From contig NC_043006.1 in the NCBI RefSeq assembly GCF_006345805.1, positions 47,058,001 to 47,122,000 of the forward strand: DNA of 64,000 bases, given 5' to 3'. The DNA is from Octopus sinensis (lineage: Eukaryota). The translations under genes and the position numbers were made by a program. Below, piece after piece: positions 1,138 through 64,000 of this stretch; position 1 is the stretch's first letter; every line of letters starts with the position of its first letter. Under the pieces are notes generated by a model. It was given only the letters and a program-made list of their open reading frames with translations. It had not been told where the DNA came from and searched no databases.

Positions 1138-3650
1138 AATAATTACAGGTATGAACCTGAACTTGTAATCTGGATAGAATAACTACAGATTCCTCAGTAG
1201 TTCAGAATACATGATCTCTTTTTCATTGATTTTCAGCTTTATGTTAACATACGCTGGGCGGTTAAATTTCACAACTGTGCGCAGTTTCTCTTCTCTATCT
1301 TAAATCATTGTATCAGGTCTGTTGTGCTTACATTCTATTGAGGTCTTCACAGGTACATTCCACCAGTATTCCCTTTTTATTATGAGTGGCTATGGCTTCT
1401 ACCATATTGCGGGTTCTTATTTCTTTGTCCTTAGGATTATCCTTCCAACGGATTTCATTACAGAGTAGAGTATCCTAGCTACAACGTAATGTTTCATCGA
1501 TAGATAATACCGTGATGGCATTTTTAGACAACTGCTTATGATGTGGGTGATATCTTCAGTGTGCACTCCAAAAAATCTGCATAGGTCGTCACATCTTGCG
1601 GCTTTTCCTGCATTTGTATCACATTTGTGCATCAGGTACTTGGTTGATATTTCCTGTTCCTGGATTGCAAACGCATATCCTTCAATATGGGAGGTAGTAA
1701 TTCGGCTGTTGGTCCATAATAAACTTCTTTCTACTAACATATCCATGCATAGTCTTCTGCTCATGTAGGCTCATACTTTCATCTGATGATACGTTGCGGT
1801 AGAGTCGTGCGACTTCTTTGGGCATGTATTCTCGGTTATCAGACAAAGAGTGTAGCTCAAGGAACTGCCTTCAAATTCTTAAGATGTTATCAGCCTCATG
1901 AATGCAAACTTGGTCAAGAGATGCACTTCGAATCTTGGTGGTTAAATGATGTTGCCGAAAGGATATGATGCGACATCCAAATGCATTTTCGATCGATGTT
2001 AAGCCTCTGCCACCTTCTTTTCGTTTTAAGTTGAGGCGGTCTACGTCTCAGTTTATGTGGAAATTATGTGTACTTGTTAGCATTTTTCGGGTTTTCACAT
2101 CAATGGCTCGGATCTCATAAAGCATCCAGTCTAGCAGCCCAAATGTTGGTATCAGTACTGGCACTACAAATACATTGTGGGCCACTGTTTTATTAAATGC
2201 AGAAAGTTCTGAGGTACAAATTTTCTTTATTTAGCAGTAATATTAGTGACATGTGTTTTGTTACAAGTGCTATTGTAAGATTTATTTTCATCCACCCGTA
2301 GACACCTGTTACATTCCACATCAGCTACAGGGGAAACGGTCAAATCATTGATGGAGATGTTACTAGCCTGGTTTATGGTTTTCCTCCTTTTCACAACCAT
2401 ATAACAACATTTATTCTGACCAAACTCCAACCCTATATTCTTTGAGAATGTTGTAACTAGGTCAAGGCTCTTTTTCATCTCATGTATTTTTTTTTGCAAA
2501 CAGTTTTAAGTCATTCACAATGAAACAGTATGTAATTTTGGTACTTCTGCTTCTTTGTAAACCAGTGAGATATCCTTCAGGCTTCCTTAACATGAACGAC
2601 AAGGGGTTTACAAAACGTATAAACATCACAGAGACGCTGTCTCCTTCGAGTATGCCCTTGTGATATTGTGTTCTGTCGGTGATAATACAGTCACTCCTTG
2701 TGTTTGATTTCAAGACGGTGGCCTAAGATGAAGCCAGGTCAGCTACGGCTTTGACTATTCTCACTGCAGATTTAGCAAGTTGAAGGGCTTCTAAAATCCA
2801 TGAGTGGGGAACAGAGTCAAAGGCTTTCATGTAGTCTAACCACATTGAAACTAGGTTCCTCCTATGCTCTAGCACCCTTCACATCACAATTTTGTTGATT
2901 AACAATTGCCCGGCACATTCCCAGACTCCTTCTTCGCAGTCGCTTGTTTTGTTGTGATAATGTTATTTGTTTCACAATGGTTCTGTAGGAAGAAGTTTAA
3001 ATATATTGTACATATCTTATACATTAAGTACTGGCAGTTTTTTGCCATGTGGGTAGTTCAGCATTTGGGCATCAATTTTGTCTCTGCCAGAGTTAATCAG
3101 TGTGGCATGCAAATGTTCCCAGTGAAAGCTTGATGGTACAGATTGATAAGATATGGACGGTACAATGTTAGCTTCTTGTACCAAAATCCAACAATCAAGT
3201 CTCTTTCATGTACTTTTCCATCCTGGAGTTTCTGGATCACAGAGTTTCACCATCAATGTTTTATGTCTTGGACGTCACGCAGGTGCAATAACTTTTTCGG
3301 ATTTCTTCCGGTCATAGAGCACCTTGGTTTAAATTCCTTCTCGTCACTCCAGATTTTCCTCCAGATTGAGTCTACGTGTTCTCATGGAGGAGCTTCCATG
3401 ATGTTTAATGCTTCTCCTCTTATGTCTCAGCATACTGCTGCCTGGTTGCGATTAAAGTTTTTGTTTATTGTTCTTCACTGACAGCTTTTAGCTCCTGCTT
3501 GAAAGTAATCAGTTTGCAAGTGAGTGTCCTCTTTCTGCTGTCTCTAAACATCATTTCTCTGTCCTTCTTTATTTTCTGTTGGTGGGACGTATAGTGATTT
3601 GCATGTTTGCGTCCAATACGCATTATTACATGACTGATGGCCTTCAGTAA
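1138..3650 (-). mobile_element. Decayed non-LTR retrotransposon of the R4/Dong (RLE) type: RT + CCHC + restriction-like endonuclease
   Basis: Minus-strand translations: RT motifs GILEGDSVS..VNPLS (cf. GIFQGDSLSP..LNPLS), ITYCFIVNDLKLFAK (cf. HLLYMDDLKLY) and FSKNIGLEFGQNKC; zinc-knuckle region AIQEQEI..CRF..EDITHIISSC..Y..KHYVVA; RLE region HNRPDTMI*DREKK..EKEIMYSEL..IPVII at about 1140-1330. Many stops and frameshifts. Confidence 0.9.
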
Positions 3651-3654
3651 CCAT

Positions 3655-3792
3655 GTGTGTATGTATGTATGTGTGTATGTATGTATGTATGTATTTATGT
3701 ATGTGTGTGTGTATGTAGGTATGTATGTGTGTGTGTATGTATGTATGTATGTATTTATGCATGTATGCTGTATCAGTCTATGTTTCCATCTC

Positions 3793-3865
<73 letters not shown>

Positions 3866-3911
3866 GTATCTATCTATCTATCTATCTATGTATCTATCTA
3901 TCTATCTATCT
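3655..3911. repeat. (TATG)n and (TATC)n microsatellites
   Basis: Directly visible. Confidence 0.95.
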
Positions 3912-4677
3912 GTTAGATTTTGAATCACTGCTACAAAGCCACTGGAGAAAGATTGGTTCCGTCTATTGAAAATAATCTGCTTTTTATCTGCTTATTTTTT
4001 TGAAGTTTTATTTACTTTGCAAAAACATAATGGGAGGTTTGTAAAACGTTATTCTGCGAAAATAGAGGGCCTGAGTTTCTGAAGATTGATAGACACTATT
4101 AATGTTATGAGCAGCAGCATCGATTTGCGAAATTTCTCCGACTCATCTGACATATCAGAACTCTGTAAGTACATGATAGAATTATTATTAAATCATCGAA
4201 CAGCCAGAATTATGAGAGCAACGGATGTAATCCGTCGGTGCATTTTTACTCACAGTAGCGTGCTTTGAAACAACACGGAGATCAACATTACATTCGCATT
4301 TTACATTTTCGAGATTGATAAATAAATTATCAGTAAAGAGCAACAGGAAGACGCTTTGCGCCTTCTTATCCGACGTTCTAACAATGTTACCAATGTGACT
4401 CTTTCCTACAGATTTTTGAGTTCTGAGTCCAAACCCTAATTTAGCTAACTCCGATGTCAGGTAGATTTTTTTCGCTTGATTTAATACCTCTATATTGTAT
4501 ATTTAATACCTCTACCTTATATTTGGGTTTGGTTTTAGAATTTATCTAATTTTTTAAAAAATCACAGTAAAATATAATTTTGTTAATGCGGTTTCCATAT
4601 CTATTTTTATATGTATACGTACCGAAGGGGAATGAAATTGTCCATATATGTGTGCGTGTGTGTCTTTTTTTAAATTT

Positions 4678-4815
4678 TTTTCAGTCATTTGACTGCGGCC
4701 TTGCTGGAGCACCTCCTTTAGTCGAGCAAATCGACCTTTGGACTTATTCTTTGTAAGCCTAGTACTTATTTTATCGGTCTCTCTTGCCGAACCGCTAGTT
4801 GACGGGGACACATAT
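4678..4815 (-). mobile_element. SINE family B, 3' half
   Basis: Reverse complement of the 3' half of the copy at 32451-32846 (tcagtcatttgactgcggcc..gctggagcacc..tttagtcgagcaaatcgacc..gtaagcctagtactta). Confidence 0.85.
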
Positions 4816-5857
4816 CCGTTAAGAACCACAGCGAGATCAGAGCGCCATTTCCTCCAAATTGATATGAATTCCAAACAATTGCAGAAAACCACCAAGAAAG
4901 TATGCATGCCATGTGGAAGTAGCTGAATGTGACTGTGGTTGAAAACTGACCGCATGTGAAACCTTTTCAGGGGCGAAAACTAATTTCGTCCCTGCTACTC
5001 CACTGAGGCCTGGCGAAACATTTCTGAAACTGAGATGTTGCTGATAGGGGAAGTTTCCCGATATTTCGATGGCTTCAGAGGAAGGGTTCCCTGAGTAGCT
5101 CCTGTAGTTTCCGCGCACTAAAGAATCTTCAGTGTTTATTTCACCAGTAAAATTAATTCGTCTATTATTATAATAGATTCAAGCAAGATTCGAAACAAAG
5201 TCTTCAAATATATTTGTAACGAAAATTAGTCTCCGTTTTAAAGTCACTGGTCAATTTGCATTTAAAATATCAGTATATACTATACCTGGTAAGAGATAGA
5301 GAAATTAATTAATTAAGGTGACTTTCTGAATATCGGATATCAGCATCCTTCTGAAGTTTATAGTAAATATGAGATTTCCTTGGAGAGTAACTGTCTGGCT
5401 GATATTAATATATTGCCGATGTCTTCAATGTTTCCTCTCTTAGAATTTCATTAATTTGTAATTAAAATATTATTTTATGTACTATTTAAGTAATTATCTT
5501 ACACTGATTAAATTTCAGGTTTAATTTCAGTCTAATTAAATTTAGGGTGGTTGAGTCTGATGTATTACCATTTGAGATAAGCACACAAAAAAATAAACAT
5601 ATAGAAATAAGATCGCACTTATAAATGTATGTATACTTACACACATACATACATACACGCACATATACATGTATTTGTGTATGTGTGTGAGTATGTATGT
5701 ATCTATATATATATATATATATTTACATATATGTACTAAATTTATTCATATGAAATCAAGTACACTTACTAGACACATATACATAATCACATTCGTATCT
5801 CCTATACGCATTCCGCAAAAGTATATCACATGCACAAACAGACACGCACATATATAG

Positions 5858-17970: not shown

Positions 17971-18384
17971 GGGGAGCTGGCAGAAACGTTAGCACGCCGG
18001 GCGAAATGCTTAGCAGTATTTCGTCTGCCGTTACGTTCAGGGTTCAAATTCCGCCGAGGTCGACTTTGCCTTTCATCCTATCGGGGTCGATAAATTAAGT
18101 ACCAGTTACGCACTGGGGTCGATGTAATCGACTTAATCCGTTTGTCTGTCCTTGTTTGTCCTCTCTGTGTTTAGCCTCTTGTGGGTAGTAAAGAAATATA
18201 TATTTCGTCTGCCGTTACGTTCTGAGTTCAAATTCCGCCGATGTCGACTATGCCTTTCATCCTTTCGGGCTCGATAGATCAAGTACCATTTACGCACTTG
18301 GGTCGATGTAATCGACTTAAGCCTTTTCTCTGTCCTTGTTTGTCCCCTCTATGCTTAGCCACTTGTAGGCAAAAAAGAAATAAG
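17971..18384 (+). mobile_element. SINE family A, long-tail subfamily: head + 2 tandem 184-bp bodies
   Basis: Unit starts (tatttcgtctgccgttacgttc) at 18017 and 18201. Confidence 0.92.
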
Positions 18385-22287: not shown

Positions 22288-23326
22288 GTGTGCATTGATA
22301 TGAATATGTATGTAGCATCCCATCCGAGATTCCGAGTGAGAGTTATTACAGCAACGTATTATACCATAAACCAGAAACCGGAGACATCAGGCAGATGTTA
22401 TCAGTATAATGACAGGAATCTTGACAGATACCAATCAAAGTGACTGGTAATAATAATGCAATAATGAATATATGGAGATCGGGGAATCAGCATCTATGAA
22501 TGAAGACAGCAAGAATAATCTGAACGTTGTTACATACGCACTATTCATAATTCTTTTGAGTGCCTTTATCAAATAGGGTCACTGAAAATAAAAGCGCAAA
22601 CCTGAAGCATTTATCTGTTGTTATAACACTGCTAGTAGATTTTTGGAAGGCTGATATTTCCTTTTTTAACAGGAGACATTTGCAAACAATAACGTCTTCA
22701 TCGACTTTGCTTGGATGCTAACCTGAAACAGAGGTATAGCATCGTTAATCGTATTGATACTTGCTTTTTCTCTGACTCTCACATACTCCTATTCTCTCAC
22801 ACGAATGCTTTATTAGATGAAGCTTATAGCCTGAAAACTTTTATTAAGGAAGGTTTTGTAACTAGTAAACTATTCTATAATTTGATCTATGCTCTACAAC
22901 TGGCTAACCAAAAGGTACGAGAGGGATCTGAAAGGTCCCTAGCTTTGGGTAAAAGAAAATGCAAGAAAATCAGATAACTCTGATTTTAATCAACAAAGAG
23001 CCGTCTCATATTCACACACTTATCACAGCAGTTCTTCAGTTTGCTTAACCCTTGGAAAAGAACTCAGAATTTTGGGCCCCGAACTAGGCCTTTCGCGATA
23101 TCCTTAAAGCAAGGAAGTTTTCACCACCTCCTGGTCTTCTTCGTGCGTTTAACATTGTCTTGGCTGAATGTTATTATAATCCAACGCTGCTTTTAGCCTA
23201 ATTGAATGATTTTAGTGAACGGATAGGATGATTTTCCCAATACATTATTCACTAAACTTATTCCCCGTAACAATATTTCCCAGCTTAACATAATATACTT
23301 CAGGCACATGGATTTACATGCAAGTG

Positions 23327-23471
23327 CAGTTCTATATTTAAGAGATGAGGAATTATGTACATTATTTAGGTTATTTACAATTGACAGATATTTGTCCTCA
23401 TCTTGATTGGCGTAGTGGTTAAGAGTGCGGGCTACTAACCCCAAGATTCCGAGTTCGATTCCAGGCAGTGT

Positions 23472-23503
<32 letters not shown>

Positions 23504-23694
23504 TAATAATAATAATAATAATAACAACAACAACAACAACATCGAAAGCTACCTTAGGAACGAGAACCCACTTTCGAAAGTTCCTAAAGACACCTCATGA
23601 AGGCTGGGGGGTATATCAGCCGAAACGTTGTGGTAACAACAAACAAGTTGAGGACAAATATCCGTCAATTGTAAATTATGTCAATAATATACAT
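23327..23694 (+). mobile_element. tRNA-head/(AAT)n/HHR element, copy 1, with inverted tail copy at its 5' end
   Basis: Inverted tail 23327-23405; A-box TGGCGTAGTGG 23408-23418; B-box GAGTTCGATTCC 23451-23462; (AAT)n(AAC)n; HHR 23589-23634 (CUCAUGA variant). Confidence 0.85.
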
Positions 23695-39989: not shown

Positions 39990-40070
39990 GCCCACGGACA
40001 TATGGCGTACGTTTCCGAGTTCGATTCCAGGCAGTGACCTGAATAACAACAACAATAATAATAATAATAA

Positions 40071-40116
<46 letters not shown>

Positions 40117-40149
40117 GTAATGATAATAATGATAATAATAATAATAATG

Positions 40150-40206
<57 letters not shown>

Positions 40207-40577
40207 CTTTCTAATTGATGTATCAATACCGGCTGATGACAACGTGTCTCTAAAAGAAATGGAGAAACTCTCAAAATACAAAGACCTGGAAATAGAGGTA
40301 ACTAGAATGTGGAATCTGAAAACAGAAACAATTCCTATCATAGTAGGTGCATTAGGCATGATAAAAAAATATTCAGACAAATACATAACAAAAACACCAG
40401 GACTTACAAACACATATAACATACAGAAAATTGCACTACTAGGCACTGCACACATCCTACGCAGAACACTTTCCATACAATAACAATCAGAGCATCACAA
40501 CAAATCACAGCACATACCCAAGGCACACAGAGTTGTGCTCGGTAGTGAAGTGAAAGCACCCTATAAAAATAAAACTA

Positions 40578-40641
<64 letters not shown>

Positions 40642-40643
40642 GC

Positions 40644-40702
<59 letters not shown>

Positions 40703-40830
40703 CATCGAAAAATACCTTAGAAATGAGAACCCATGTTAACAGCAAACAATACGTGGACGAATATCCGTCAAACGTAAATAATATAAATAATGTAAATAAT
40801 GCACATAAGTTCTCATCTCTTATATATAGA
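39990..40830 (+). mobile_element. tRNA-head/(AAT)n/HHR element, copy 2 (head and HHR internally deleted), interrupted by a Dong fragment
   Basis: atatggcgta..ttccgagttcgattccaggcagtgacctg(AAT)n ... aacatcgaaaaataccttagaaatgagaaccca..atatccgtcaaa..ctcatctcttatatatagaa. Confidence 0.8.
40205..40580 (+). mobile_element. 5'-truncated R4/Dong LINE 3' end (RLE domain + 3' UTR) inserted in (TAA)n
   Basis: Uninterrupted frame CFLIDVSIPADDNVSLKEMEKLSKYKDLEIEVTRMW..IPIIVGALG..IQKIALLGTAHILRRTL, stop at 40481-40483, about 100-bp UTR, (AAT)n on both sides. TAA targeting is established for Dong. Confidence 0.92.
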
Positions 40831-41496
40831 AATATATATGTGCGTGTATATATGTGTGTGTGTTTGCAGTTTTGGAAATTGGATGTGGAAAAACTTTTAG
40901 GACAGAAAAGGATCGAAAGATGACTCGGACCCAGATCTGCTGTAGACGTGAGAGCCGGTCTACCATTGAACTAGAGTAATATATCGAAGTTTTCCTATGA
41001 ATTTCAGAACCTCCATTCTTTCCCTAGAGAATTATCTGTTGTTGATATGATAGGAACTCATAATATATCATGAGCACGTGAAATAATTGTATTTTAAGTT
41101 TATCCTCGAAATTGCTTTATGTTTCCAAAATCCCCCACTCCCGCATTATCCATTACAATGCATCTTGGCTTAACGGCCTTCGATGATTGTCTTCGACGAT
41201 TGCTTACTCTATACATCCACCGTGTTGGTTTGGTTTGTTCGAAGCTCTAACTCTCTACAAAATTTATATGTTTAAAATTTGTGGATGCTGCTGTTTTTGT
41301 CGTTGAAAGCTCGAAATGAGGAGTAAGAAGTTGACAACTGAGGAGGGGTTAGACTTCGTTTGCTATTTTGTCCCCGTGCTTATGTCTCATTATGCGTTTT
41401 CGTATTTTTCACTCGTTTGTGGTGTCTTGTTTCTTTTTTTATATGTCTGTGTGTGTATGTATGTATGTATGTATGTATGTATGTATACTCATTCAT

Positions 41497-41894
41497 TTAC
41501 TCATTTACTTGTTTCAGTCATTTGACTGTGGCCATGCTGGAGCACCACCTTTAGTCGAGGAAATCGACCCCAGGACTTATTCTTTGTAAGCCTAGTACTT
41601 ATACTATCGGTCTCTTTTGCCAAACCGCTAAGTTACGGAGACGAAAACACACCAGCATCGGTTGACAAGCGATGTTGAGGGGTGGACAAACACAACACAC
41701 AAACATACACACACACACATATATATATATATACATATATACGACGGGCTTCTTTCAGTTTCCAAATCTACTCACAAGGCTTTGTTCGGCCCGAGGCTAT
41801 AGTAGAAGACACTTGCCCAAGGTGCAAGGCAGTGGGACTGAACTCGGAAACATGTGGTTCGTAAGCAAGCTACTTACCACACAGCCACTCCTAC
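41497..41894 (-). mobile_element. SINE family B, full length
   Basis: Reverse complement of 32451-32846. Confidence 0.92.
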
Positions 41895-42226
41895 ATATAT
41901 ATGTGTGTGTGTGTGTGTATGTGTGTGCAGAAGGTTGAGAAGGAAATCAAGAGATGATATATATAAGGAAAATCAGACAAGGTAGAACATTCTAAAATAA
42001 TTTTATCATGACGAACATTTTACTACCGGTTTCCGTTATTGCGACTTTTTCAAGCATGAAACTCAATTAAATGTAATCTTTTTAATCTATTTCCATAGTT
42101 TTCACATGCAAAGGACTTTTTGTTTTTTTTTATGCCTGTCTGTCTCTATTCTTTACTTTCGCAATGGCTGAGTAGCAGGTAGAATCAGTCCTAATGTATC
42201 TCTCTCTCTCTCTATCTATCTATCTA

Positions 42227-42271
<45 letters not shown>

Positions 42272-42982
42272 TATACACATATATGCAGCTATACAACGTA
42301 TAGAAGTGTGAAAGTATTTTAAACTGAAATATCCTTTTTGATGCCAATTCAATTTTCACTTGAGAAACGACTCGTATTCATTTATTTATTTCATAAGAAT
42401 ATTTTGTATCTTTTGTATGAAGTGTCCATTACTACGGATTGTAATGATCTATCTACTTTGGTTTATGCTTTCATAAGCATATTTTCATTTCAACTGTATT
42501 TTATCATTTTCTTGGCAGTTCGGAAGTTGATTAATCTATTTATGTCAATTGCGTAACGTATCGTAGCGGCATATAATTTCATATAGAAAATTTATTTAAA
42601 TACAATCGTCTCCAAAGAAATTATAGATAAAAAGCAGCAAAATTTTGAAAAATACAAGTAAAGAACCGGGAAACAGAACAATGACAACCAAATAAAATGC
42701 TTCATTATAACTACAATAAACCAAAATGTTTAATGAAACAAACTATATATAGTCGCAGAAATAGATTTAACTAACACAAAGCATACAGTATTAGAATTCA
42801 CTATAAGGAAAGATTATTTGAAAAGTCCTAAAACCGAAATATTCTCTTCAAAAGAATCAAGTGTAATAACGAATTGACTTTAAATAAACAATAACATCTA
42901 CGCCGTGTATTGAGTACTCGTTCTTTTAAAAACTAAAATGTTTTAAGAAATAAAACATACATCGAGATATATAGCCTAACAT

Positions 42983-43549
42983 ATCGTGAAGTATATTTCC
43001 ACCTAAATGTGGCAGACGCATAGGGGACGAGGTTACTATTGTTTATAACACAAGGAAGACATCTCCTATAGCTGGCTAACAACACACTGCCTGTGTTCCG
43101 ATTAGTATTTGCGAAAGTTAATCCTCTGAGTGAGGAGTAAATAGTAGCAGCACGGAATCGCTCAGAGATTTATTATTGCTTGATTCTCCGTTTTTGAGAT
43201 CAGCGACAGTTTGTCACTGGAAAAAGTATATGGTATTTTGCGTTTGGAAAGTATATGGTATTTTGCCCCCATAGATAGCTGGTGATTATCACACACTGAT
43301 GACGGGTTATTACACAGAAACTCAGGTCTGTGTGTATCACGTAAGACTAGAGATAGGAACGATTAGTTCCCTTCGCAAATACTAATCGGACACAAACAGC
43401 GTTTCGTTAGCCAACTGGAGGAGATGTCTTCCTGGGGCTATAAACAACAGTAGCATCATCCCCTATGGGTGCACCACATTTAGGTGGCAAATATTATTTA
43501 CGATTCCTTGCTGCTACAGTTTACTTCTCGCTCAGAGATTTATTACTGC

Positions 43550-43550
<1 letters not shown>
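42983..43550 (+). mobile_element. Retrozyme-like element: ~370-bp terminally redundant monomer (43159-43550) preceded by two inverted partial copies (42983-43160)
   Basis: Direct repeat cgctcagagatttatta(t/c)tgct at 43159-43180 and 43529-43550; 42983-43115 is the imperfect reverse complement of 43372-43504; 43120-43160 is the reverse complement of 43501-43540; contains a type I HHR; ends in (TA)n. Confidence 0.75.
43282..43340 (+). ncRNA. Type I hammerhead ribozyme motif
   Basis: GUGAU-uau-CACACA-CUGAUGA-CGGGU(uauu)ACACA-GAAA-C(ucag)G-UC-UGUGUG-u-AUCAC: stem I CACACA/UGUGUG plus GUGAU/AUCAC beyond an internal loop, full core, GUC site at 43326-43328; stem II has two mismatches. Confidence 0.8.
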
Positions 43551-43581
<31 letters not shown>

Positions 43582-43855
43582 TTCTTTTCAATTCTTGGCG
43601 GTAACAAGCTGCATGTGTGTGTGTGTGTGGGGGGCTGCTTCAAGGGACACATCGAACAAATTGTCAGTAGGGAATATTTAGATATTTGGTAGTTATTCTT
43701 TCTTCAAAACACGCGAATGGCTTCCGTACAGTTTCCATCATCTACATTGACTCGCAGGGCATAGGTTTTTCCTGGGGTTACTGCCCAATTTGCCACGCAA
43801 TGGAACTGAACCTGAAATCACAAGGTTTCTTACCAGAATGCCATGCCTGCTACAT

Positions 43856-43908
<53 letters not shown>

Positions 43909-45399
43909 ATATATGTGTGTGTGTGGTGTGTGTGTGTGTGTATATATACATATATGTCAGTATATATATATAATTATATACTCATGTTTGTATACATAGT
44001 CATGTGATTATGTGCCTATCATGCACGCTGCAATATATTGCATTTGATTTTTTTAACTTGAAATTTGAAGAAAAAATAAGATAAATCCTAGCACAGATAA
44101 GATATATTATTGTATTCTTCACTAATGCAATTTTTCTTCCATATTAAACAGTTTAGAACAATTAGAACGAAATGAAAATGTTACATATAAAATATCTGAC
44201 TCCAATATTTCCTATTTTTCTATTTCTGCAACATTTGATGTTATTGTTGTCACGCACAAAGATTAAAAAAAATATTCATCTCTACTTAAAAGAACAAGAG
44301 GCTTTGCGCCAATACATGTTTGCACGAAGAACTGATACACTAAAACACGTATGCACACACGTTGTTGTATATATATATACATATATGTACACTTTGTTGC
44401 ACATATATACATATATGTGTGTGTGTGTGTGTGTGTGATGTATTTACGTATGTATATATGTAGTGAGAAAGAAGCAGATTTTTATATATGTGTATGTGAT
44501 TGTGTATGTGTGTATGTGTCTGTGTGCGTGTGTGTTATTATTTTCCTTCTTCCGTGACCTAAACCGTTTGATTTGGTTTAGATTTTCAAAAGAATCCACA
44601 ACGCTGCTACTTTTTACAAAATATTTTTTCCTGTACAAGTTAGCTATGAATAATATTTTAAGTATAACACACAAACGTACATATAACTAAAGGTATTTTT
44701 TTAATGTAATAAACTATGCAGAAAAAATAATCCTGAAGGCACCTGCATATAATGTATTGTGCTTACGTCAGTTCACGTAACTTAGATATCCATTCACTTA
44801 GATTAAATTTGAAAACATACATAGATATGTCTTACATCTATGTATACAATAGTTAGGAACACATGTTTTATATTAATATCATAGCGTGATATACTCAGAG
44901 ATAAGGCCAAGATCTCATGTTTTATATTAATATTATCGTGTGATATAATTTGATATGGGTCTACAGGACAATTCCATTCAGATTTAATATTTCATATTTG
45001 CTGTAGGCATTTATTCTCGACATTCGAAAAGTATATACAAATAAATATTGGTTGAATTCCGGTTCCAATATAATGACATATGTGCTCCATAATTTATTTA
45101 TGTTTCCTACTAGACAGAGAAGAAAGAAAGGAAAAACTGAACACTTTCATGTTTTATGTTCCTTCGATCCTTATTTCATTACTGATGTTGTTATTGTTAT
45201 TGTTATTGTTCTGATTGTTTGAATATGTAAGCAAAAAGGTTAAAGTCGTGATGGTGTGTATTTGTTTGCTATAGTGTATCTGCCACTACGTCATCGAATC
45301 TGTCCTTCATTTTGACAGATTGAAAAACTTGAAAGGTATTTACAATTTCTAATTGAACCGGTGCTGCGTGATTTGTTTTGTGAGTAGCGAGAAATACTT

Positions 45400-45591
45400 G
45401 TTTCAAATTTTGGCACAAGTCCAGGAGGAGGTAAGTCATTTACATCAACCCAAGTGTTCAGCTGGTACTCGTTTTATTGACTTCGAAAGGGCGAAAGGCA
45501 AAGTCGACACCAATGGCATTTGAACTCAGAATATAACGTCGAGAGAAAGACTTCTAAGCAGTTTATCGGCGCGATAATGATTTTGCAAGCT
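45400..45591 (-). mobile_element. Decayed SINE family A
   Basis: gaaaggcaaagtcgac..atttgaactcagaa. Confidence 0.75.
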
Positions 45592-45640
45592 GAAAACATT
45601 CAAATATAATATTAATAATATTACAAGATATTTGTAAATA

Positions 45641-45857
45641 CAGTTCTATATTTAAGAGATGAGGAATTATTTACGTTATATTTATTATTTACATTTGACA
45701 GATATTTGTCCTCATCTTTGTTGTTAAAACAACATTTCGGGTTCGCGAAAATTCGAACCTGGGTTCTCATTTCTAAGGTATATTTCGGGCATATGGCGTA
45801 GTGTTTAAAAGTGGGGGCTACTAACCCCAAAATTCCGAGTTCGATTCCAGGCAGTGA

Positions 45858-45947
<90 letters not shown>

Positions 45948-46017
45948 CAACAACAACAACATAGAAAAATCCCTTAGGACTGAGAACCCAGGTTCGAAAT
46001 TTCCCCGAGACACCTGA
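45641..46017 (+). mobile_element. tRNA-head/(AAT)n/HHR element, copy 3, with inverted tail copy at its 5' end
   Basis: Inverted tail 45641-45787; head about 45790-45861; (AAT)n(AAC)n; direct tail truncated inside the HHR at gacacctga. Confidence 0.85.
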
Positions 46018-46451
46018 ATGGGTGTTCGTCATCTTGATGCCTTCAAAGAAATCCAGGTGATAATTGAGGAGCAGGTATTGGTTATGTTTGAAAATGGGTG
46101 ATGAAACATGGTTTGAGAGTTATTGATCTAGAAATTAACTTATGACCGAATGCTAGTCAATTGATCCAGGACATGGGATCTGACATCAGTGGGTAGGGAC
46201 TTGTGCGTTTTAAAATCGACGAGATGATCTCGAAACGGTGCACACTCCATATATCTACTGGGTTCCGGGATGCAGTGGTTTTCCTTGATTACGCTAGCAT
46301 GCAGAATTCTCTCCATATAGATACACATATGTGTATATGAATGGAAAAATAAATATATAATTTCCATCATTGCAAACTTAAACTTTAAAGGAACAAATAT
46401 CTTATTTATATTTTTTACATTTGATAGATATTTGTCATCTTGTTTGTTGTT

Positions 46452-46497
46452 AACACAACGTTTCGGTTGATATATCCTCCAGCCTTCATCAGGTGTC
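46452..46497 (-). ncRNA. Minimal hammerhead ribozyme motif
   Basis: GACAC-CUGAUGA-A-GGCUG..CAACC-GAAA-CG-UU-GUGUU; one stem II mismatch. Confidence 0.7.
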
Positions 46498-46574
46498 TTG
46501 GGGAAATTTCGAACCTGGGTTTTCAATCCTAAAGGTAGTTTTCGATGTTATCATCATCATCATCATTATTATTA

Positions 46575-46669
<95 letters not shown>

Positions 46670-46743
46670 CAGTTACTGCCTGGAATCGAACTGGGGGCGA
46701 AAAATAGCTTAGGAATGAAAACTCAGGTTCGAATTTTACCGAA

Positions 46744-46789
46744 GACACCTGATGAAGGCTGGAGGGTATAACAGCCGAAACGTTGTGTT
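46744..46789 (+). ncRNA. Minimal hammerhead ribozyme motif, intact
   Basis: GACAC-CUGAUGA-A-GGCUG(gaggguauaa)CAGCC-GAAA-CG-UU-GUGUU: stem I GACAC/GUGUU, stem II 5 bp, stem III replaced by the palindrome AACGUU, as in dimer-cleaving PLE HHR variants. Confidence 0.8.
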
Positions 46790-49700
46790 AACAACAGACA
46801 AGATGAGGACAAATATCCGTCAAATGTAAATAATGTAAATAATGTACACAATTCTTCATCTCTTACATATGGATCTATAATAGAAATCGAACTTGAAAAG
46901 TAATTTTAAAATGAATATGCTGTTGAAGATATGTTAATATACAGAGAGGCAACCGATAAAACAATAAAAGATTAATGTCAAGATCTCAACTAAGATCCGC
47001 TGTGCACTTCCCATTCACCAAGAGTCTGAAAAATATGAGACATGCTTGTAATGAGAAAGATGTTCTCTTTAGGCTATGAAACTTGTTATGAAATAATTAA
47101 TTGACATGTATATGTATTTATCTCACACAAAAATATTGTTGACCATTTTGTTAAATACGAAAGAATTCTTTGAACATACTTCTTTTTAACATTTTCATAG
47201 CATCAATGTCTGAGATATGTAAACATGGGCAATTTTTATTTCAGTTTCTTTTTCTCTACTGCAGATACAGCCTTAAATGTGTATAATAGGTCACAATAAA
47301 AAGGTGTTTAATTGTCGAAAGTAGTGTGGCTATGGATACCAGCAAAGATATAAACGCATAAGCACCTGACAAACATAGTCATGCTAGTAGCTGATACAGT
47401 TCACTGGTACCGCACACCATAATTGGATGAAGTGATGCTAAGTTGCCGCGCTTTGTGATCGCGATCAGAAGTACTTGAATTCGAAGTGAAATTATAACCG
47501 CATACAAAGTATACTACATACTAAAAATAGAAACGTTAAAGATATGACGCAACAGATACACATCTATAAGGCAGTCGATAAATCTGTGATGTAATTCTTT
47601 GAGTGACGTGCCATATTATTTTATTGAACCTATTTAACAAATAACTAAAGTCCCAAAACGTTTGGAATAAAAGAGCATTTCAAAGAGAACTTTATTGCAG
47701 TTAAGCTATATGATATAACCAGATTAGTTGTATGATCACCGCCGAGCAATTTATATATTATAGACTAGCGAATTGAATTTATCAAAAGAAAAATACTGTC
47801 AAAAATATCTCTAGCAGATAAAAAAGAAATGTGTTTTATTTAAGCCTTAACATAGGTCATAGAGTTTCTTTGCAGTGCCAGTATATATATGACAAGGAAT
47901 ATAATACGCGAGCAAAGGTATGTTACTGTTGTACGCACGTCAATCTTATTATTTATCAAACACACCACAAAAATACTCCAGATATAATCTGTTGGTTTGA
48001 CATAATGTATATATCTTGTGCCAGAATGAAGAATATCGTTTTTTTTATGGTAACATTAAAAGCATAAATATTTCTAATCTCTCTAGTGGGATATAAATAT
48101 ATTGATTCAAACCATATGACATTAAGAATACTGTTGGTTCATTGGTTCAGTGTGTCATATGGTGTCACATGCTGGCTAACAATGATTATTGATTCTTCTT
48201 TGTGCATTGGAAGTTACATAATTCGTACATTGCTTCACTAAATATACTAACATGAAAATGTTAGGAAATAAATTAGTTTGATTTACATAAACTTATGAGA
48301 TAAATCAGTGCATGTGTTGGATTAGGAAAGTTGTTTTACTTTGATCACAGGTGTAGGGTCAAAACTAATGGCATTTGAGTGGAATGCCAGAAAAAAAGCG
48401 CATTCAAACCAAATCTCCACTGAGACCGAAGCACATTCATCTACAGCCGTGTTTCTCGCTATATCAGTCAGCATTGATTTCTAGTTTTCGATCTAAGCTA
48501 GAAATTTATCTGTCGGGTAAGATGAAATTTGAATATCAAAACATAACTGACATGTAGTTGTGACTATGTATGTATGTATGTATCTATCCATCTGCCTATC
48601 TGTCTGTCTGCCTGTCTGTCTGTCTGTCTCTGTCTGTTTATCTACTTTTCTGCATACATACACACTCACATACACGTATACATGCATGCATGCTTACATA
48701 CATACATCCATACATACATATATACATACATATATACATACATATATAAATGCATGCATACATACATGCATATATACATACATATACATATATATATATA
48801 TATACATATATACATACGTGCATATATACATACATACATGCATACATACACACATTTAAATAACGTCACTTGACTTATAATCGAATATATCTTGTTTGCA
48901 AAAAAATATTTATAAAGAAACTGGTACAGATATAGTCATATGCTAAGCAGAAATCAGTTGGCAGATCTGTTATAACGGATAGGGAGTCTTACATTTTCAC
49001 TCTGAAAAGACTTGAAATCTCATAAAAAGTCATTGTGGGGCCGTTTAGGAACTCAGTGAAATGTTCATGCAGGAGTTTATAATAGCGTTGTGAATCTGCG
49101 ATCTACTTTTGTCTTTCAATAGATGCATTTAAAATATTCTAGAGGCCTTTATCTAGAATGAATAGTAGCCTTGATATTGATGAATTTAGCAAGGGGCTAA
49201 ATTTCCTGTATATTCTGCTTGTACCAGCATTCAATTAGGGCTTTAACTTGCTGTATATTGCATCCATTTAGAACGGCTTTATACTACATTCGTTTTTCAA
49301 TTAACAGTAGTCGCTTCTTCGCAAAATATTTTTATGAAATACATTTTAATGTTTGTGGTTGAGAGATACGCACCTACCTCTAGTGGTTTGAAATATGGTT
49401 AATCAAGCTGCACGAAGAACAAGTTGAACTTTATAATTTTTCTTTGAATTCGCTGCCAACAGGAATGAGTGTGTGTGGCGGTGTGATGAAATTCTGATAT
49501 TTTTTATGAGTAGGAGGGAGTACACACACGCGCGCGCAAATATACAGTATAACGAATGGTTTATCAAACATATCCAGAAACTGAACTGTGAAAAAACGCG
49601 CTGAAAGAGAATTATAAATAAACTCCGGCAGTATTTTAACAATGAAATCAAAGCCATAGCTTAATATTAATTTTAATTGATTTTAATTGCATTATATTGA

Positions 49701-60095: not shown

Positions 60096-60710
60096 TTTCT
60101 GCCAATTCACAGGCGGCGATCAGGCAGAAACGTTAGCGCACCGGGCGAAATGCTTAGCAGTATTCCGTCTACCGTTACATTCTGAGTTCAAATTCCGCCG
60201 AGGTCGACTTTGCCTTTCATCCTTTCGGGGTCGATTAAATAAGTACCAGTTACATACTGGGGTCGATATAATCGACTTAATTCGTCTGCCTGTCCTTGTT
60301 TGTCCCGTATGTGTTTAGCCCCTTGTGGGTAGTAAAGAAATAGGTATTTCGTCTGCAGCTACGTTCTGAGTTCAAATTCGGCCGAGGTCGACTTTGCCTT
60401 TCATCCTTTCGGGGTCGATTAAATAAGTACCAGTTACGTACTGGGGTAGATATAATCGACTTAATTCGTCTGCCTGTCCTTGTTTGTCCCGTATGTGTTT
60501 AGCCCCTTGTGGGTAGTAAAGAAATAGGTATTTCGTCTGCAGCTACGTTCTGAGTTCAAATTCGGCCGAGGTCGACTTTGCCTTTCATCCTTTCGGGGTC
60601 GATTAAATAAGTACCAGTTACGCACTGGGATTGATGTAATCGACTTAATCGCTTTGTCTGTCCTTGTTTGTCCCCTTTATGTTTAGCTGTCTGTGGGCAA
60701 TAAAGAAGAA
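60096..60710 (+). mobile_element. SINE family A, long-tail subfamily: head + 3 tandem 184-bp bodies, 13-bp TSD
   Basis: Unit starts at 60161, 60345 and 60529; TSD agaaatagagtag at 60083-60095 and 60711-60723. Confidence 0.93.
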
Positions 60711-62189: not shown

Positions 62190-62845
62190 GAATGAAGCTG
62201 CTGTGCCACAGTAATGCATAAATGGCATTGTAATCTGTATGTACTAGGGTAAGGGCCCAAAATCATTTGTCGTAATTCTAGAGGAATAACTCTCCTGGCA
62301 CATACCGGGAAGATACTTTCAAGGTTCATGTTATATTGTCTCGTTGAAAATGTGTGTCCATATGCGATCCAGATGACCAACGTGGTTTCAGAATTGTACA
62401 AGGAACTATGGATATATTTTCTGTGAGGCGCTGTGGATTGGTTTGTGTAAACTTTGTTGCCCAACACATTTTGTACGCATCTTTAAGAAACTACATAGAA
62501 GCACGACGGCTCAGATAGTCTTTAATGCTGATCTTTCACGCGAATTTTTGGTGAACAATAGCGTCAAACAGGGAGATATTCCTGCCCCTGCACTTTTCTC
62601 TATTTTGCTGCATTGCTTTGATATGCCTTCAAGGAAGGCAACAGGAGAATCGGAATCAGGTTTCGGATATCTTGTCGCTATTTTAATCTTAACCCGGTTT
62701 AATTGCAAAGCAAATACTTTCAAAACAATTGTCACAGAATCGCTTTCCGCTGATGATGTTTCGGCACACTCAGTAAAATATATGCAACATATAATGGACA
62801 GCTTTTTCACTGATTTTGTACATTTTGGACTCATAATTAGTCTTA
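62190..62845 (+). mobile_element. Decayed RTE-clade LINE reverse transcriptase fragment
   Basis: NSRGITLLAHTGKILSR, LCCPTHFVRIFKKLH, NSVKQGDIPAPALFSI, ESLSADD and FGLIISL match RTE/BovB-like RT motifs; truncated by (TATG)n at about 62850. Confidence 0.85.
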
Positions 62846-62931
62846 GGGAAGTATGTATGTATGTACGGATGTATGTATGTATGTATGTATGTATGTACGT
62901 ATGTATGTATGTATGTATGTATGTATGTATG

Positions 62932-62962
<31 letters not shown>

Positions 62963-64000
62963 GTTCTGCATTAGTAAGGCAACATGAAATGAAGTATCAC
63001 ACAATACCGTCACAGTTCGAGGAATCGAACGCACGACTTTATGATCACGAGTCAATTACACTAACTACTAAAGTATATGCCTTTACATTTATACGCATGT
63101 GTGAGTTTGTGTGTGTGTACACGCCTGTGCTTGTGGCTTGTGTGATTCTATGAGGGTTGAAGTGTATGGAAATAAAATGCTGGAAGCGCCATTCTATATA
63201 AAAGCATATTTTACGTCTCGAAACAAGCTGTAAAGCAATGATTTCAGAACCAAATTTATTAACTACTTCTACGATAATCTATCTTCTCTGAGTAGAAATA
63301 TTTCTTATTTGATGAAAACTAAGATTCACGACGTCATTCAGTGGTGTCAGATTTTCATAAATAATTAAACACTTAACAAGTTTTCTCAAGACCACACTTT
63401 GTTCTAAGAGAGATCTTGTTATACAGCAGACGTGCTTCATTTTTAATTGACACCACGAACAGCCTTGTTCGCTGAACAACTTGTTATCACATAGAACATT
63501 CCATTGCTTTATATTTATAGGTCATGCCACCCACTTGTCATGAATTTAGAAGATATGCCCAAATACGGCGTAACATTACTGATGCCTTCCAAAATAAATC
63601 AAACTCCTTCATTTGTGTTCGGAATTGTCAGTCTTATTGAAAAGTTGTTAGCATGTGTGAATCTACGATGTTAAATTTTGAAAGATTTATTTGACAGAAA
63701 GGAAAATATACAATCAACAACCGGTTGAAAGAAATGTGTGGATCAACAGGTCAACATCCAAACAATTCCAATTCCTTATAAATAATGAGTATTTCTGGAA
63801 GTCATCCAAAAAGGGTAAATATGGAAAAGATATTTAAATTTCTTCAATAATGTACTAGTAGGTGGTGGTTTCGCACGCAGGAAACAAATTAATTGTAAGA
63901 ATTCTTATTAATTTTAGAGAAGCAAGAAACTTTTAATTGGAAGCTAAGATGTTCGAATGAAGGGAGTGACTATTACGGATCATTCAGTTCGCTAAGCAAT

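What the first reader, a model, noticed from the sequence alone, without database searches (positions are those of the whole stretch)
42983..43550. Retrozyme-like element: terminally redundant ~370-nt monomer with a type I hammerhead and inverted 5' copies
Seen: a complete HHR core (CUGAUGA 43296-43302, GAAA 43317-43320, GUC 43326-43328) with a stem I interrupted by an internal loop. It lies in a non-coding unit whose first 22 bp recur exactly 370 bp later (43159 and 43529), i.e. slightly more than one turn of a circle or tandem. Immediately upstream are two inverted pieces of the same unit, and the element ends in (TA)n. Known: metazoan non-LTR retrozymes are 150-400-nt type I HHR monomers that form circular RNAs and are thought to borrow PLE machinery; inverted 5' pieces are typical of PLE integration. 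Inference: this is a genomic copy of a cephalopod retrozyme/circRNA family. Stem II carries mismatches, so this copy may be inactive.
Basis: partly seen in the sequence, partly recalled or inferred. Interest (0 to 1): 0.85.

Follow-up and report, generated by a model that had tools for sequence, protein, structure and literature searches.

The report
Decayed hammerhead retrozyme, probably octopus
A 370-base non-coding repeat unit carrying a hammerhead (self-cutting RNA) motif is one old, damaged copy of a many-copy family in what is likely an octopus genome; it is probably a retrozyme, a parasitic element already known from other animals, and neither cutting nor circular RNA has been shown here.

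Summary
In detail: hammerhead core at 43296-43328, a 22-nt end repeat (21 of 22 identical, not exact) 370 nt apart, two inverted pieces (83% alike) and an (AT)n right flank. Contigs of two public DNA runs show a multi-copy family: depth in the direct unit is mostly 1,700-5,700, against 10 and 5 in the unique flank. Other copies run head-to-tail back into the unit's start at 369-371 nt with no ORF between. Family-majority letters restore a G-C pair in helix II and turn helix III into a perfect palindrome, the design of dimer-cleaving metazoan hammerheads. This copy has lost both and holds one hammerhead, so it is probably dead. Its inversion junction also appears in a second species about 10% diverged, so the insertion is likely old. 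The layout (inverted 5' arm, 46-nt tail at one end, AT-microsatellite target) is that of Penelope-like insertions. No RT gene lies nearby. Cleavage, circular RNA, a two-hammerhead tandem and the helix II closing pair are not shown; Rfam gives no hammerhead hit. Verdict: new family of a known kind.

The parts
43159..43528 (+). One full 370-nt non-coding unit (41% GC); other copies appear about 12 nt shorter around 43248-43275
   Evidence: depth mostly 1,700-5,700 vs 10.2 and 5.4 in the flank, head-to-tail joints of 369-371 nt
43282..43340 (+). Canonical-type type I hammerhead: helix I 6+5 bp, CUGAUGA 43296-43302, helix II 43304-43315, GAAA 43317-43320, helix III 43320-43327, predicted cut after C43328; damaged in this copy
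   Evidence: majority letters at 43310, 43314, 43322, 43324
43529..43550 (+). Terminal redundancy: repeat of 43159-43180, 21 of 22 identical
43505..43550 (+). 46-nt extension present at the right end only (the inverted arm's outer end stops at the equivalent of 43504); read as the one-sided Penelope 'tail' (inference)
   Evidence: tail described in 10.1101/2021.04.23.441226
43119..43160 (-). Inverted piece B, copy of 43501-43542 (35 of 42 identical)
42983..43115 (-). Inverted piece A, copy of 43372-43504 (110 of 132 identical). B and A together read as one turn of the unit lacking about 199 nt, the part with the hammerhead
43223..43266 (+). 19-nt direct duplication, 25 nt apart, apparently private to this copy
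   Evidence: depth falls to 90 and 140 at 43250-43279 and loose ends show other letters before 43276
43404..43455 (+). Core shared with far more abundant related repeats
   Evidence: depth 27,500-118,000 and loose ends at 43404/43408 and 43455 in all 4 runs
43551..43582 (.). (AT)n tract, likely the target site; the left flank ends in ...AACAT, so the empty site would read straight into the tract; no target duplication can be told

Best explanation
This is one old, decayed copy of a multi-copy, non-coding repeat family with a type I hammerhead motif, most likely a non-LTR retrozyme that was copied into the genome by the enzymes of a Penelope-like element. Shown: the motif, the many copies, the head-to-tail closure of the unit in other copies' DNA, the majority letters that restore helix II and a palindromic helix III, the inverted arm and the (AT)n flank. 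Inferred mechanism: intact tandem masters elsewhere would be transcribed; two hammerheads would pair through the palindromic helix III and cut after GUC; monomers of about 360 nt would be ligated to circles by a host RtcB-type ligase; a Penelope RT with its GIY-YIG nuclease would nick an (AT)n tract and copy a circle or an uncut multimer for a little over one turn (392 nt), which puts the cut site inside the insert rather than at its ends; priming from the other target end would give the inverted arm. This copy has one hammerhead with a broken helix II pair and a broken palindrome and is predicted to be inactive.
For: Depth mostly 1,700-5,700 over the unit vs 10.2 (X1) and 5.4 (X10) in the flank; 1,872 and 1,787 contigs laid. 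Five joint rows return from 43494-43549 to 43158-43191 with totals of 369-371 nt (two of the five probably come from one contig). 43314 is C in 58% (X1) and 81% (X10) of depth and restores G-C in helix II; 43322 C (58%, 62%) and 43324 G (79%, 74%) make 43320-43327 a perfect palindrome, duplex -14.9 vs -1.4 kcal/mol; only 4 of 252 double changes of that 8-mer do so. With 25 majority letters the circular fold goes from z -1.7 to -5.4 and beats 200 of 200 random same-kind substitution sets. The inverted arm has the X1 majority letter at 12 of 15 sites, and the direct arm at 5 of 5 sites listed in the inverted arm, so both arms decayed from a family sequence. 0 of 113 frames reach a Pfam cut-off. 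Helix sizes fit the canonical metazoan hammerhead of PMC4209133; unit size fits mussel retrozymes in PMC7229834; inverted arm, tail and (TA)n bias fit Penelope-like insertions.
Against: No Rfam hammerhead hit. The 10.1-11.1 pair is C.A here and no restoring letter is among the 40 of 213 rows shown; X10 and X17 list no C>G change at any place, so the usual G10.1 in this register is not a common variant. Even with majority letters the hammerhead fold is not the lowest-energy fold, as a monomer (-12.3 vs -24.8) or as a dimer (-45.3 vs -52.4). The majority letters are not shown to lie on the same molecule, and one helix III letter is a minority in X17 (35%). No listed contig spans two hammerheads, so long tandems are not shown. 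The RNA-guess runs give no sign of one abundant circle. In a 2026 preprint only 1 of 9 predicted retrozyme dimers cleaved in vitro. The mobilising enzyme was not identified.
Confidence: 0.75

Rival explanations
1. The unit is the pseudo-LTR of an autonomous Penelope-like element, and this locus is a 5'-truncated remnant with tail and inverted arm; no independent retrozyme cycle exists.
For: The layout is exactly that of Penelope-like insertions; retrozymes and pLTRs are sister sequences in Xenopus; recently active Penelope families are reported in Octopus vulgaris.
Against: Other copies close head-to-tail at 369-371 nt with no ORF between; only 0.04 and 0.02 of laid contigs run on into unlike sequence; no Pfam-level hit in 110 frames at 35-51.5 kb; the hammerhead is canonical (helix I 6 bp, short helix II), not the minimal kind described for metazoan pLTRs, which a different repeat in this window does carry.
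Confidence: 0.14
2. The family spread mainly as DNA (satellite-type amplification or hitch-hiking of the abundant 43404-43455 core), and the hammerhead is an inherited relic that never acted in the making of these copies.
For: The deepest part is the 43404-43455 core, not the hammerhead; the closing pair of helix II is unresolved; hammerhead folds are not lowest in energy.
Against: A lone insert with inverted arm, one-sided tail and microsatellite target fits retrotransposition; inversion joints also appear in other copies (43185/43433 in X1, 43367/43481 in X10); the family majority folds better than controls.
Confidence: 0.08
3. The hammerhead is a chance look-alike inside an ordinary SINE-like repeat.
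For: No Rfam hit; the loose descriptor is met by chance 0.08 times per 64 kb.
Against: Independent contigs restore a helix II pair and give a perfect helix III palindrome; no core letter change is among the rows shown; the unit closes on itself.
Confidence: 0.03

Closest known systems
Metazoan non-LTR retrozymes (Cervera and de la Pena 2020, PMC7229834; parts 2-4 of 6 read; supplement not readable)
   Same: Type I hammerhead in a non-coding unit of 150-450 bp, GC under 50%, many copies, head-to-tail closure; size like mussel units (350-390 bp); short helix III with palindromic tetraloop and a weak helix II base recall the axolotl motifs.
   Different: This locus is 1.06 units with one hammerhead plus an inverted arm, not a tandem array; cleavage and circles are untested; no sequence comparison with the published families was run.
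Solo (monomer) non-LTR retrozymes as non-autonomous Penelope derivatives (Li, Clavereau and Pollet 2026, 10.64898/2026.07.22.740005; parts 1-3 of 5 read; supplements closed)
   Same: Dispersed single unit of an HHR repeat family; proposed Penelope origin and mobilisation.
   Different: That survey covered 31 vertebrates, 3 insects and 1 coral, no mollusc; this locus fails its criterion for an active element (two consecutive units with complete hammerheads).
Penelope-like element pLTRs and insertion structure (Cervera and de la Pena 2014, PMC4209133, parts 1-2 of 4 read and 2 of 3 supplement files searched; Craig et al. 2021, 10.1101/2021.04.23.441226, passages)
   Same: Inverted 5' copy, tail at one end only, microsatellite target, type I hammerhead.
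   Different: No RT-GIY-YIG ORF here; tail 46 nt against 30-40 described; hammerhead canonical rather than minimal.
Rfam Hammerhead_1 matches in the giant squid genome (PMC6962438; passage read)
   Same: 235 hammerhead 1 matches were counted in a cephalopod genome, so hammerheads in cephalopods are on record.
   Different: The passage describes no element; this copy does not score against Rfam.

Membership tests
Non-LTR retrozyme | Type I hammerhead with intact core and helices I-III | tested here: inconclusive
   Core and helix I intact in this copy; helix II inner pairs and palindromic helix III restored by family-majority letters; closing pair 10.1-11.1 unresolved; no Rfam hit
Non-LTR retrozyme | Non-coding unit of about 150-450 bp, GC under 50% | tested here: met
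   370 nt, 41% GC, longest ATG frame round the circle 59 aa; no Pfam-level hit
Non-LTR retrozyme | Many genomic copies | tested here: met
   Depth some hundred times the flank in 2 of 2 DNA runs laid, about 1,800 contigs each; a rough order only, not a copy number
Non-LTR retrozyme | Head-to-tail arrangement of the unit | tested here: met
   Five joint rows closing at 369-371 nt in X1 and X10, and the 22-nt redundancy here
Non-LTR retrozyme | [quoted passage not shown] | tested here: inconclusive
   Absent at this locus; no listed contig is long enough to span two; no genome is held
Non-LTR retrozyme | No LTR, primer-binding site or polypurine tract | not tested
   No long direct terminal repeat and no tRNA gene in the window, but PBS and PPT were not searched for
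Non-LTR retrozyme | Self-cleavage of the RNA | not testable with these tools
   Folding energies only
Non-LTR retrozyme | Expression as monomeric circular RNA | tested here: inconclusive
   Two RNA-guess runs hold 110 and 200 family contigs, 2 and 3 of them 99% alike or more; contigs cannot show level, strand or circles
Autonomous Penelope-like element (pLTR) | RT plus GIY-YIG ORF attached to the repeat | tested here: not met
   0 of 110 frames of 45 aa or more at 35-51.5 kb reach a Pfam cut-off; low-complexity frames were left out; other loci not seen
Autonomous Penelope-like element (pLTR) | Minimal hammerhead typical of metazoan pLTRs (long helix II, short helix I, extra base after CUGANGA) | tested here: not met
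   Helix I 6+5 bp, helix II 3-4 bp against the description in PMC4209133; C43303 as the extra base cannot be excluded
Autonomous Penelope-like element (pLTR) | Inverted 5' copy, one-sided tail, microsatellite target | tested here: met

The most novel reading that the evidence does not exclude
An undescribed cephalopod retrozyme superfamily: hundreds of close copies, plus sister repeats with thousands that share the 43404-43455 core, still making abundant hammerhead-cut circular RNAs. This locus would be a fossil of a Penelope enzyme copying a circle from both target ends, the second pass skipping the hammerhead segment, so that a genome-wide map of ends would test directly whether retrozymes move through circular templates.
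Probability: 0.25. Interest if true: 0.55.

Novelty: new member of a known kind. Interest (0 to 1): 0.3.

Why it matters
The kind is known from corals, mussels and amphibians. The addition is a family in a probable octopus, which the paper searches did not find described (subscription journals, Repbase, Dfam and the 2020 supplement were not seen). How animal retrozymes move is still a proposal. This copy carries the full Penelope insertion signature on an ORF-less unit with the cut site inside the insert. Mapping the ends of many copies would test the circular-template and Penelope-helper model. The copy itself is an old fossil with no sign of a host function.

Tried and rejected
No whole genome is held, so copies were seen only through contigs of 4 of the 24 runs listed, with most table rows hidden. 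Rfam: no hammerhead in 40000-47000 or 43150-43548. Pattern scans for the hammerhead and for the 43413-43439 core found 0 matches in metagenome contigs and viral contigs. No RNA holder is listed on record; this says nothing on expression. Earlier findings: none by sequence, by the first word set or for this genome. The joint 43364->43168 (back 197 nt; X10 and X17) looked like the reciprocal of the deletion in the inverted arm, but its middle is 'not known' and it may be an ordinary diverged head-to-tail contig; not used. The idea that the inverted arm is older than the end repeat was not supported (1 or fewer mismatches in 23 has P = 0.06 at 18% divergence). An assembly artefact is rejected for 42650-43220: one X1 contig covers it with 1 difference, though X1 may be the source sample. 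One search's pattern was written from this site, so its shuffle control is no test. The stretch laid ends at 43549, so the right junction and the empty site were not checked in other samples. PMC10886601 (passages) was not relevant.

Full report
Observation. Helix I has 6 of 6 pairs, a 3x1 internal loop and 5 of 5 further pairs; helix II has 2 of 3 inner pairs and C.A at its base; helix III has 2 pairs and a four-base loop. A descriptor scan of both strands found 2 sites with helix I of 4 bp or more and only this one with 6 or more; 100 Markov-shuffled windows give 0.42 and 0.08 such sites. Rfam gave no hammerhead match at E up to 5 or 10. The end repeat is 21 of 22 identical at a spacing of 370. 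The inverted pieces copy 43372-43504 (110 of 132) and 43501-43542 (35 of 42). No other copy of the unit lies in the window. The surroundings are AT-rich and full of microsatellites. An octopus host is my inference from that repeat content and from recall; no call names the organism.

Family. No genome is held. Of 24 runs listed I laid 4 on 42650-43549 at 80% likeness: X1 (best holder, possibly the source sample), X10 (a second organism label), and X17 and X20 (guessed RNA). Depth in the unique flank is 10.2 in X1 and 5.4 in X10. Over the direct unit it is mostly 1,700-5,700, with 1,872 and 1,787 contigs laid. The tool warns that depth is no copy number; I read it only as an order of hundreds. 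Depth drops to 90 and 140 at 43250-43279, where this copy has a 19-nt duplication, so typical units are probably about 12 nt shorter. It rises to 27,500-118,000 at 43400-43459, where loose ends on both sides show related repeats that share only this core. Only 40 of 213 variant rows, 15 of 66 joint rows, 12 of 20 between-letter rows and 24 of 624 loose-end rows were shown.

Closure of the unit. Five rows join the end of the unit back to its start: 43494->43158 with 33 letters between (X1), 43504->43162 with 27, 43504->43158 with 24, 43528->43163 with 4 and 43549->43191 with 10 (X10; the last two have the same depth and are probably one contig). The totals are 369-371 nt. So other copies run head-to-tail with no ORF between. 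These are DNA contigs: they show tandem or permuted copies, not RNA circles. No listed contig spans two hammerheads.

Hammerhead in the family. Four variant rows fall in the motif. 43314 is C in 58% (X1), 81% (X10), 65% (X17) and 44% (X20) of depth and pairs with G43305. 43322 is C in 58, 62, 69 and 61%, and 43324 is G in 79, 74, 35 and 97%; together they make 43320-43327 a perfect palindrome. 43310, in loop 2, is C in 64, 73, 84 and 51%. The 8-mer duplex goes from -1.4 to -14.9 kcal/mol; 4 of 252 double changes of that 8-mer give a palindrome. This is the canonical metazoan design of PMC4209133: helix I 6 bp, helix II 4 bp, a 1-2 bp helix III with a palindromic loop, active as a dimer. Against: the closing pair of helix II is unresolved, and X10 and X17 list no C>G change anywhere, so G at 43303 is not common; the letters are not shown on one molecule; and the hammerhead fold is not the lowest-energy fold as monomer (-12.3 vs -24.8) or dimer (-45.3 vs -52.4; for this copy -16.9 vs -37.4). 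The competing fold pairs 43303-43308 with 43319-43324 and could keep monomers shut; that is a guess. With 25 majority letters the circular fold has z -5.4 against -1.7 for this copy (40 shuffles each), and 0 of 200 random same-kind substitution sets fold as well. The 25 come from 34 shown rows in the unit. I dropped 9: 2 at low depth, 5 that are a minority in X1, and 2 in the shared core that are a majority in X1 only. One kept letter (43472) is also a majority in X1 but not in X10.

This locus. The inverted arm has the X1 majority letter at 12 of 15 sites, and the direct arm has it at 5 of 5 sites listed in the inverted arm: both arms decayed separately from a family sequence. One X10 contig at single-copy depth (5.84) spans 43070-43394, across both inner junctions, with 31 differences and 13 gaps; another covers the flank 42650-42946 with 29 differences in 297. 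I infer that the insertion predates the split from organism E. X10 has no cover at 42950-42979, so this is not fully bridged. The outer end of the inverted arm equals 43504 and the right end is 43550, which leaves a 46-nt extension on one side. The left flank ends in AACAT and the right begins with (AT)n. Craig et al. describe an inverted 5' copy, a 30-40 bp one-sided tail and (TA)n bias for Penelope-like insertions. Two further inversion joints in other copies (43185/43433 in X1, 43367/43481 in X10) suggest this recurs. None of 113 frames reaches a Pfam cut-off: 110 frames of 45 aa or more at 35-51.5 kb after a low-complexity filter, and 3 from elsewhere in the window; 4 weak matches lie below cut-off.

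Mechanism. The predicted cut (after 43328) lies inside the insert, 222 nt from its right end, so the template was not a cut linear monomer; a circle or an uncut multimer fits. I commit to the retrozyme cycle of PMC7229834: tandem master, dimer cleavage, ligation, copying by a Penelope RT at a nicked (AT)n site for 392 nt, with a second priming that gave the inverted arm. That arm reads as one turn minus about 199 nt including the hammerhead; whether the enzyme skipped it or it was deleted later is open. All steps from transcription onward are inferred. The RNA-guess runs hold 110 and 200 family contigs and none in the flank; a multi-copy repeat would look so from read-through or from DNA, so they are no evidence of circles. 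Only 1 of 9 predicted dimers cleaved in the 2026 preprint, which lowers the odds of present activity.

Comparison and novelty. It works like, and probably is, a solo copy of a non-LTR retrozyme; cleavage, circles and an intact tandem master are untested. It is not an autonomous Penelope element at this locus. A separate repeat 3 kb away carries the minimal hammerhead typical of pLTRs, and recently active Penelope families are reported in Octopus vulgaris, so a helper is plausible if the host is an octopus. Searches for retrozyme or hammerhead with octopus or cephalopod terms found no description of such a family, only a count of 235 hammerhead matches in giant squid. The unread 2020 supplement, the closed preprint supplements and repeat databases may hold it. 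Verdict: real, a new member of a known kind, an old and probably dead copy; interest 0.3.

Noticed in passing
window 46749-46784 (+), 46492-46457 (-), 23594-23629 (+): A second, unrelated hammerhead family of the minimal Penelope type (extra base after the core, 5-6 bp helix II, GAAA-CG-UU). Two copies lie in opposite orientation across an (AAT)n tract; the third has a damaged core. The host repeat has several pieces in the window (23319-23679, 40013-40837, 45633-46879). Chance for the strict form is 0.017 per window.
   Followed up: partly
window 43404-43455: A core of about 50 nt shared with repeats roughly ten or more times deeper than the rest of the unit in all 4 runs; their flanking letters differ but seem, by eye, to keep similar hairpins.
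   Followed up: no
window 43446-43455 and 43512-43521: A 10-bp long-range helix appears in the fold with majority letters and joins the shared core to the tail region.
   Followed up: no
window 43364->43168: A joint going back 197 nt is seen in one X10 and one X17 contig, close to the ends of the segment missing from the inverted arm; its middle is not known.
   Followed up: partly
window 18017-18382 and 60160-60687: Tandem copies (2.0 and 2.9) of a 184-nt unit, 88% and 94% matches, that looks SINE-like by recall.
   Followed up: no
window 62377-63153 (+): A frame that resembles a decayed LINE reverse transcriptase by eye (recalled motifs), broken by a microsatellite; no Pfam match at E 0.01.
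   Followed up: partly
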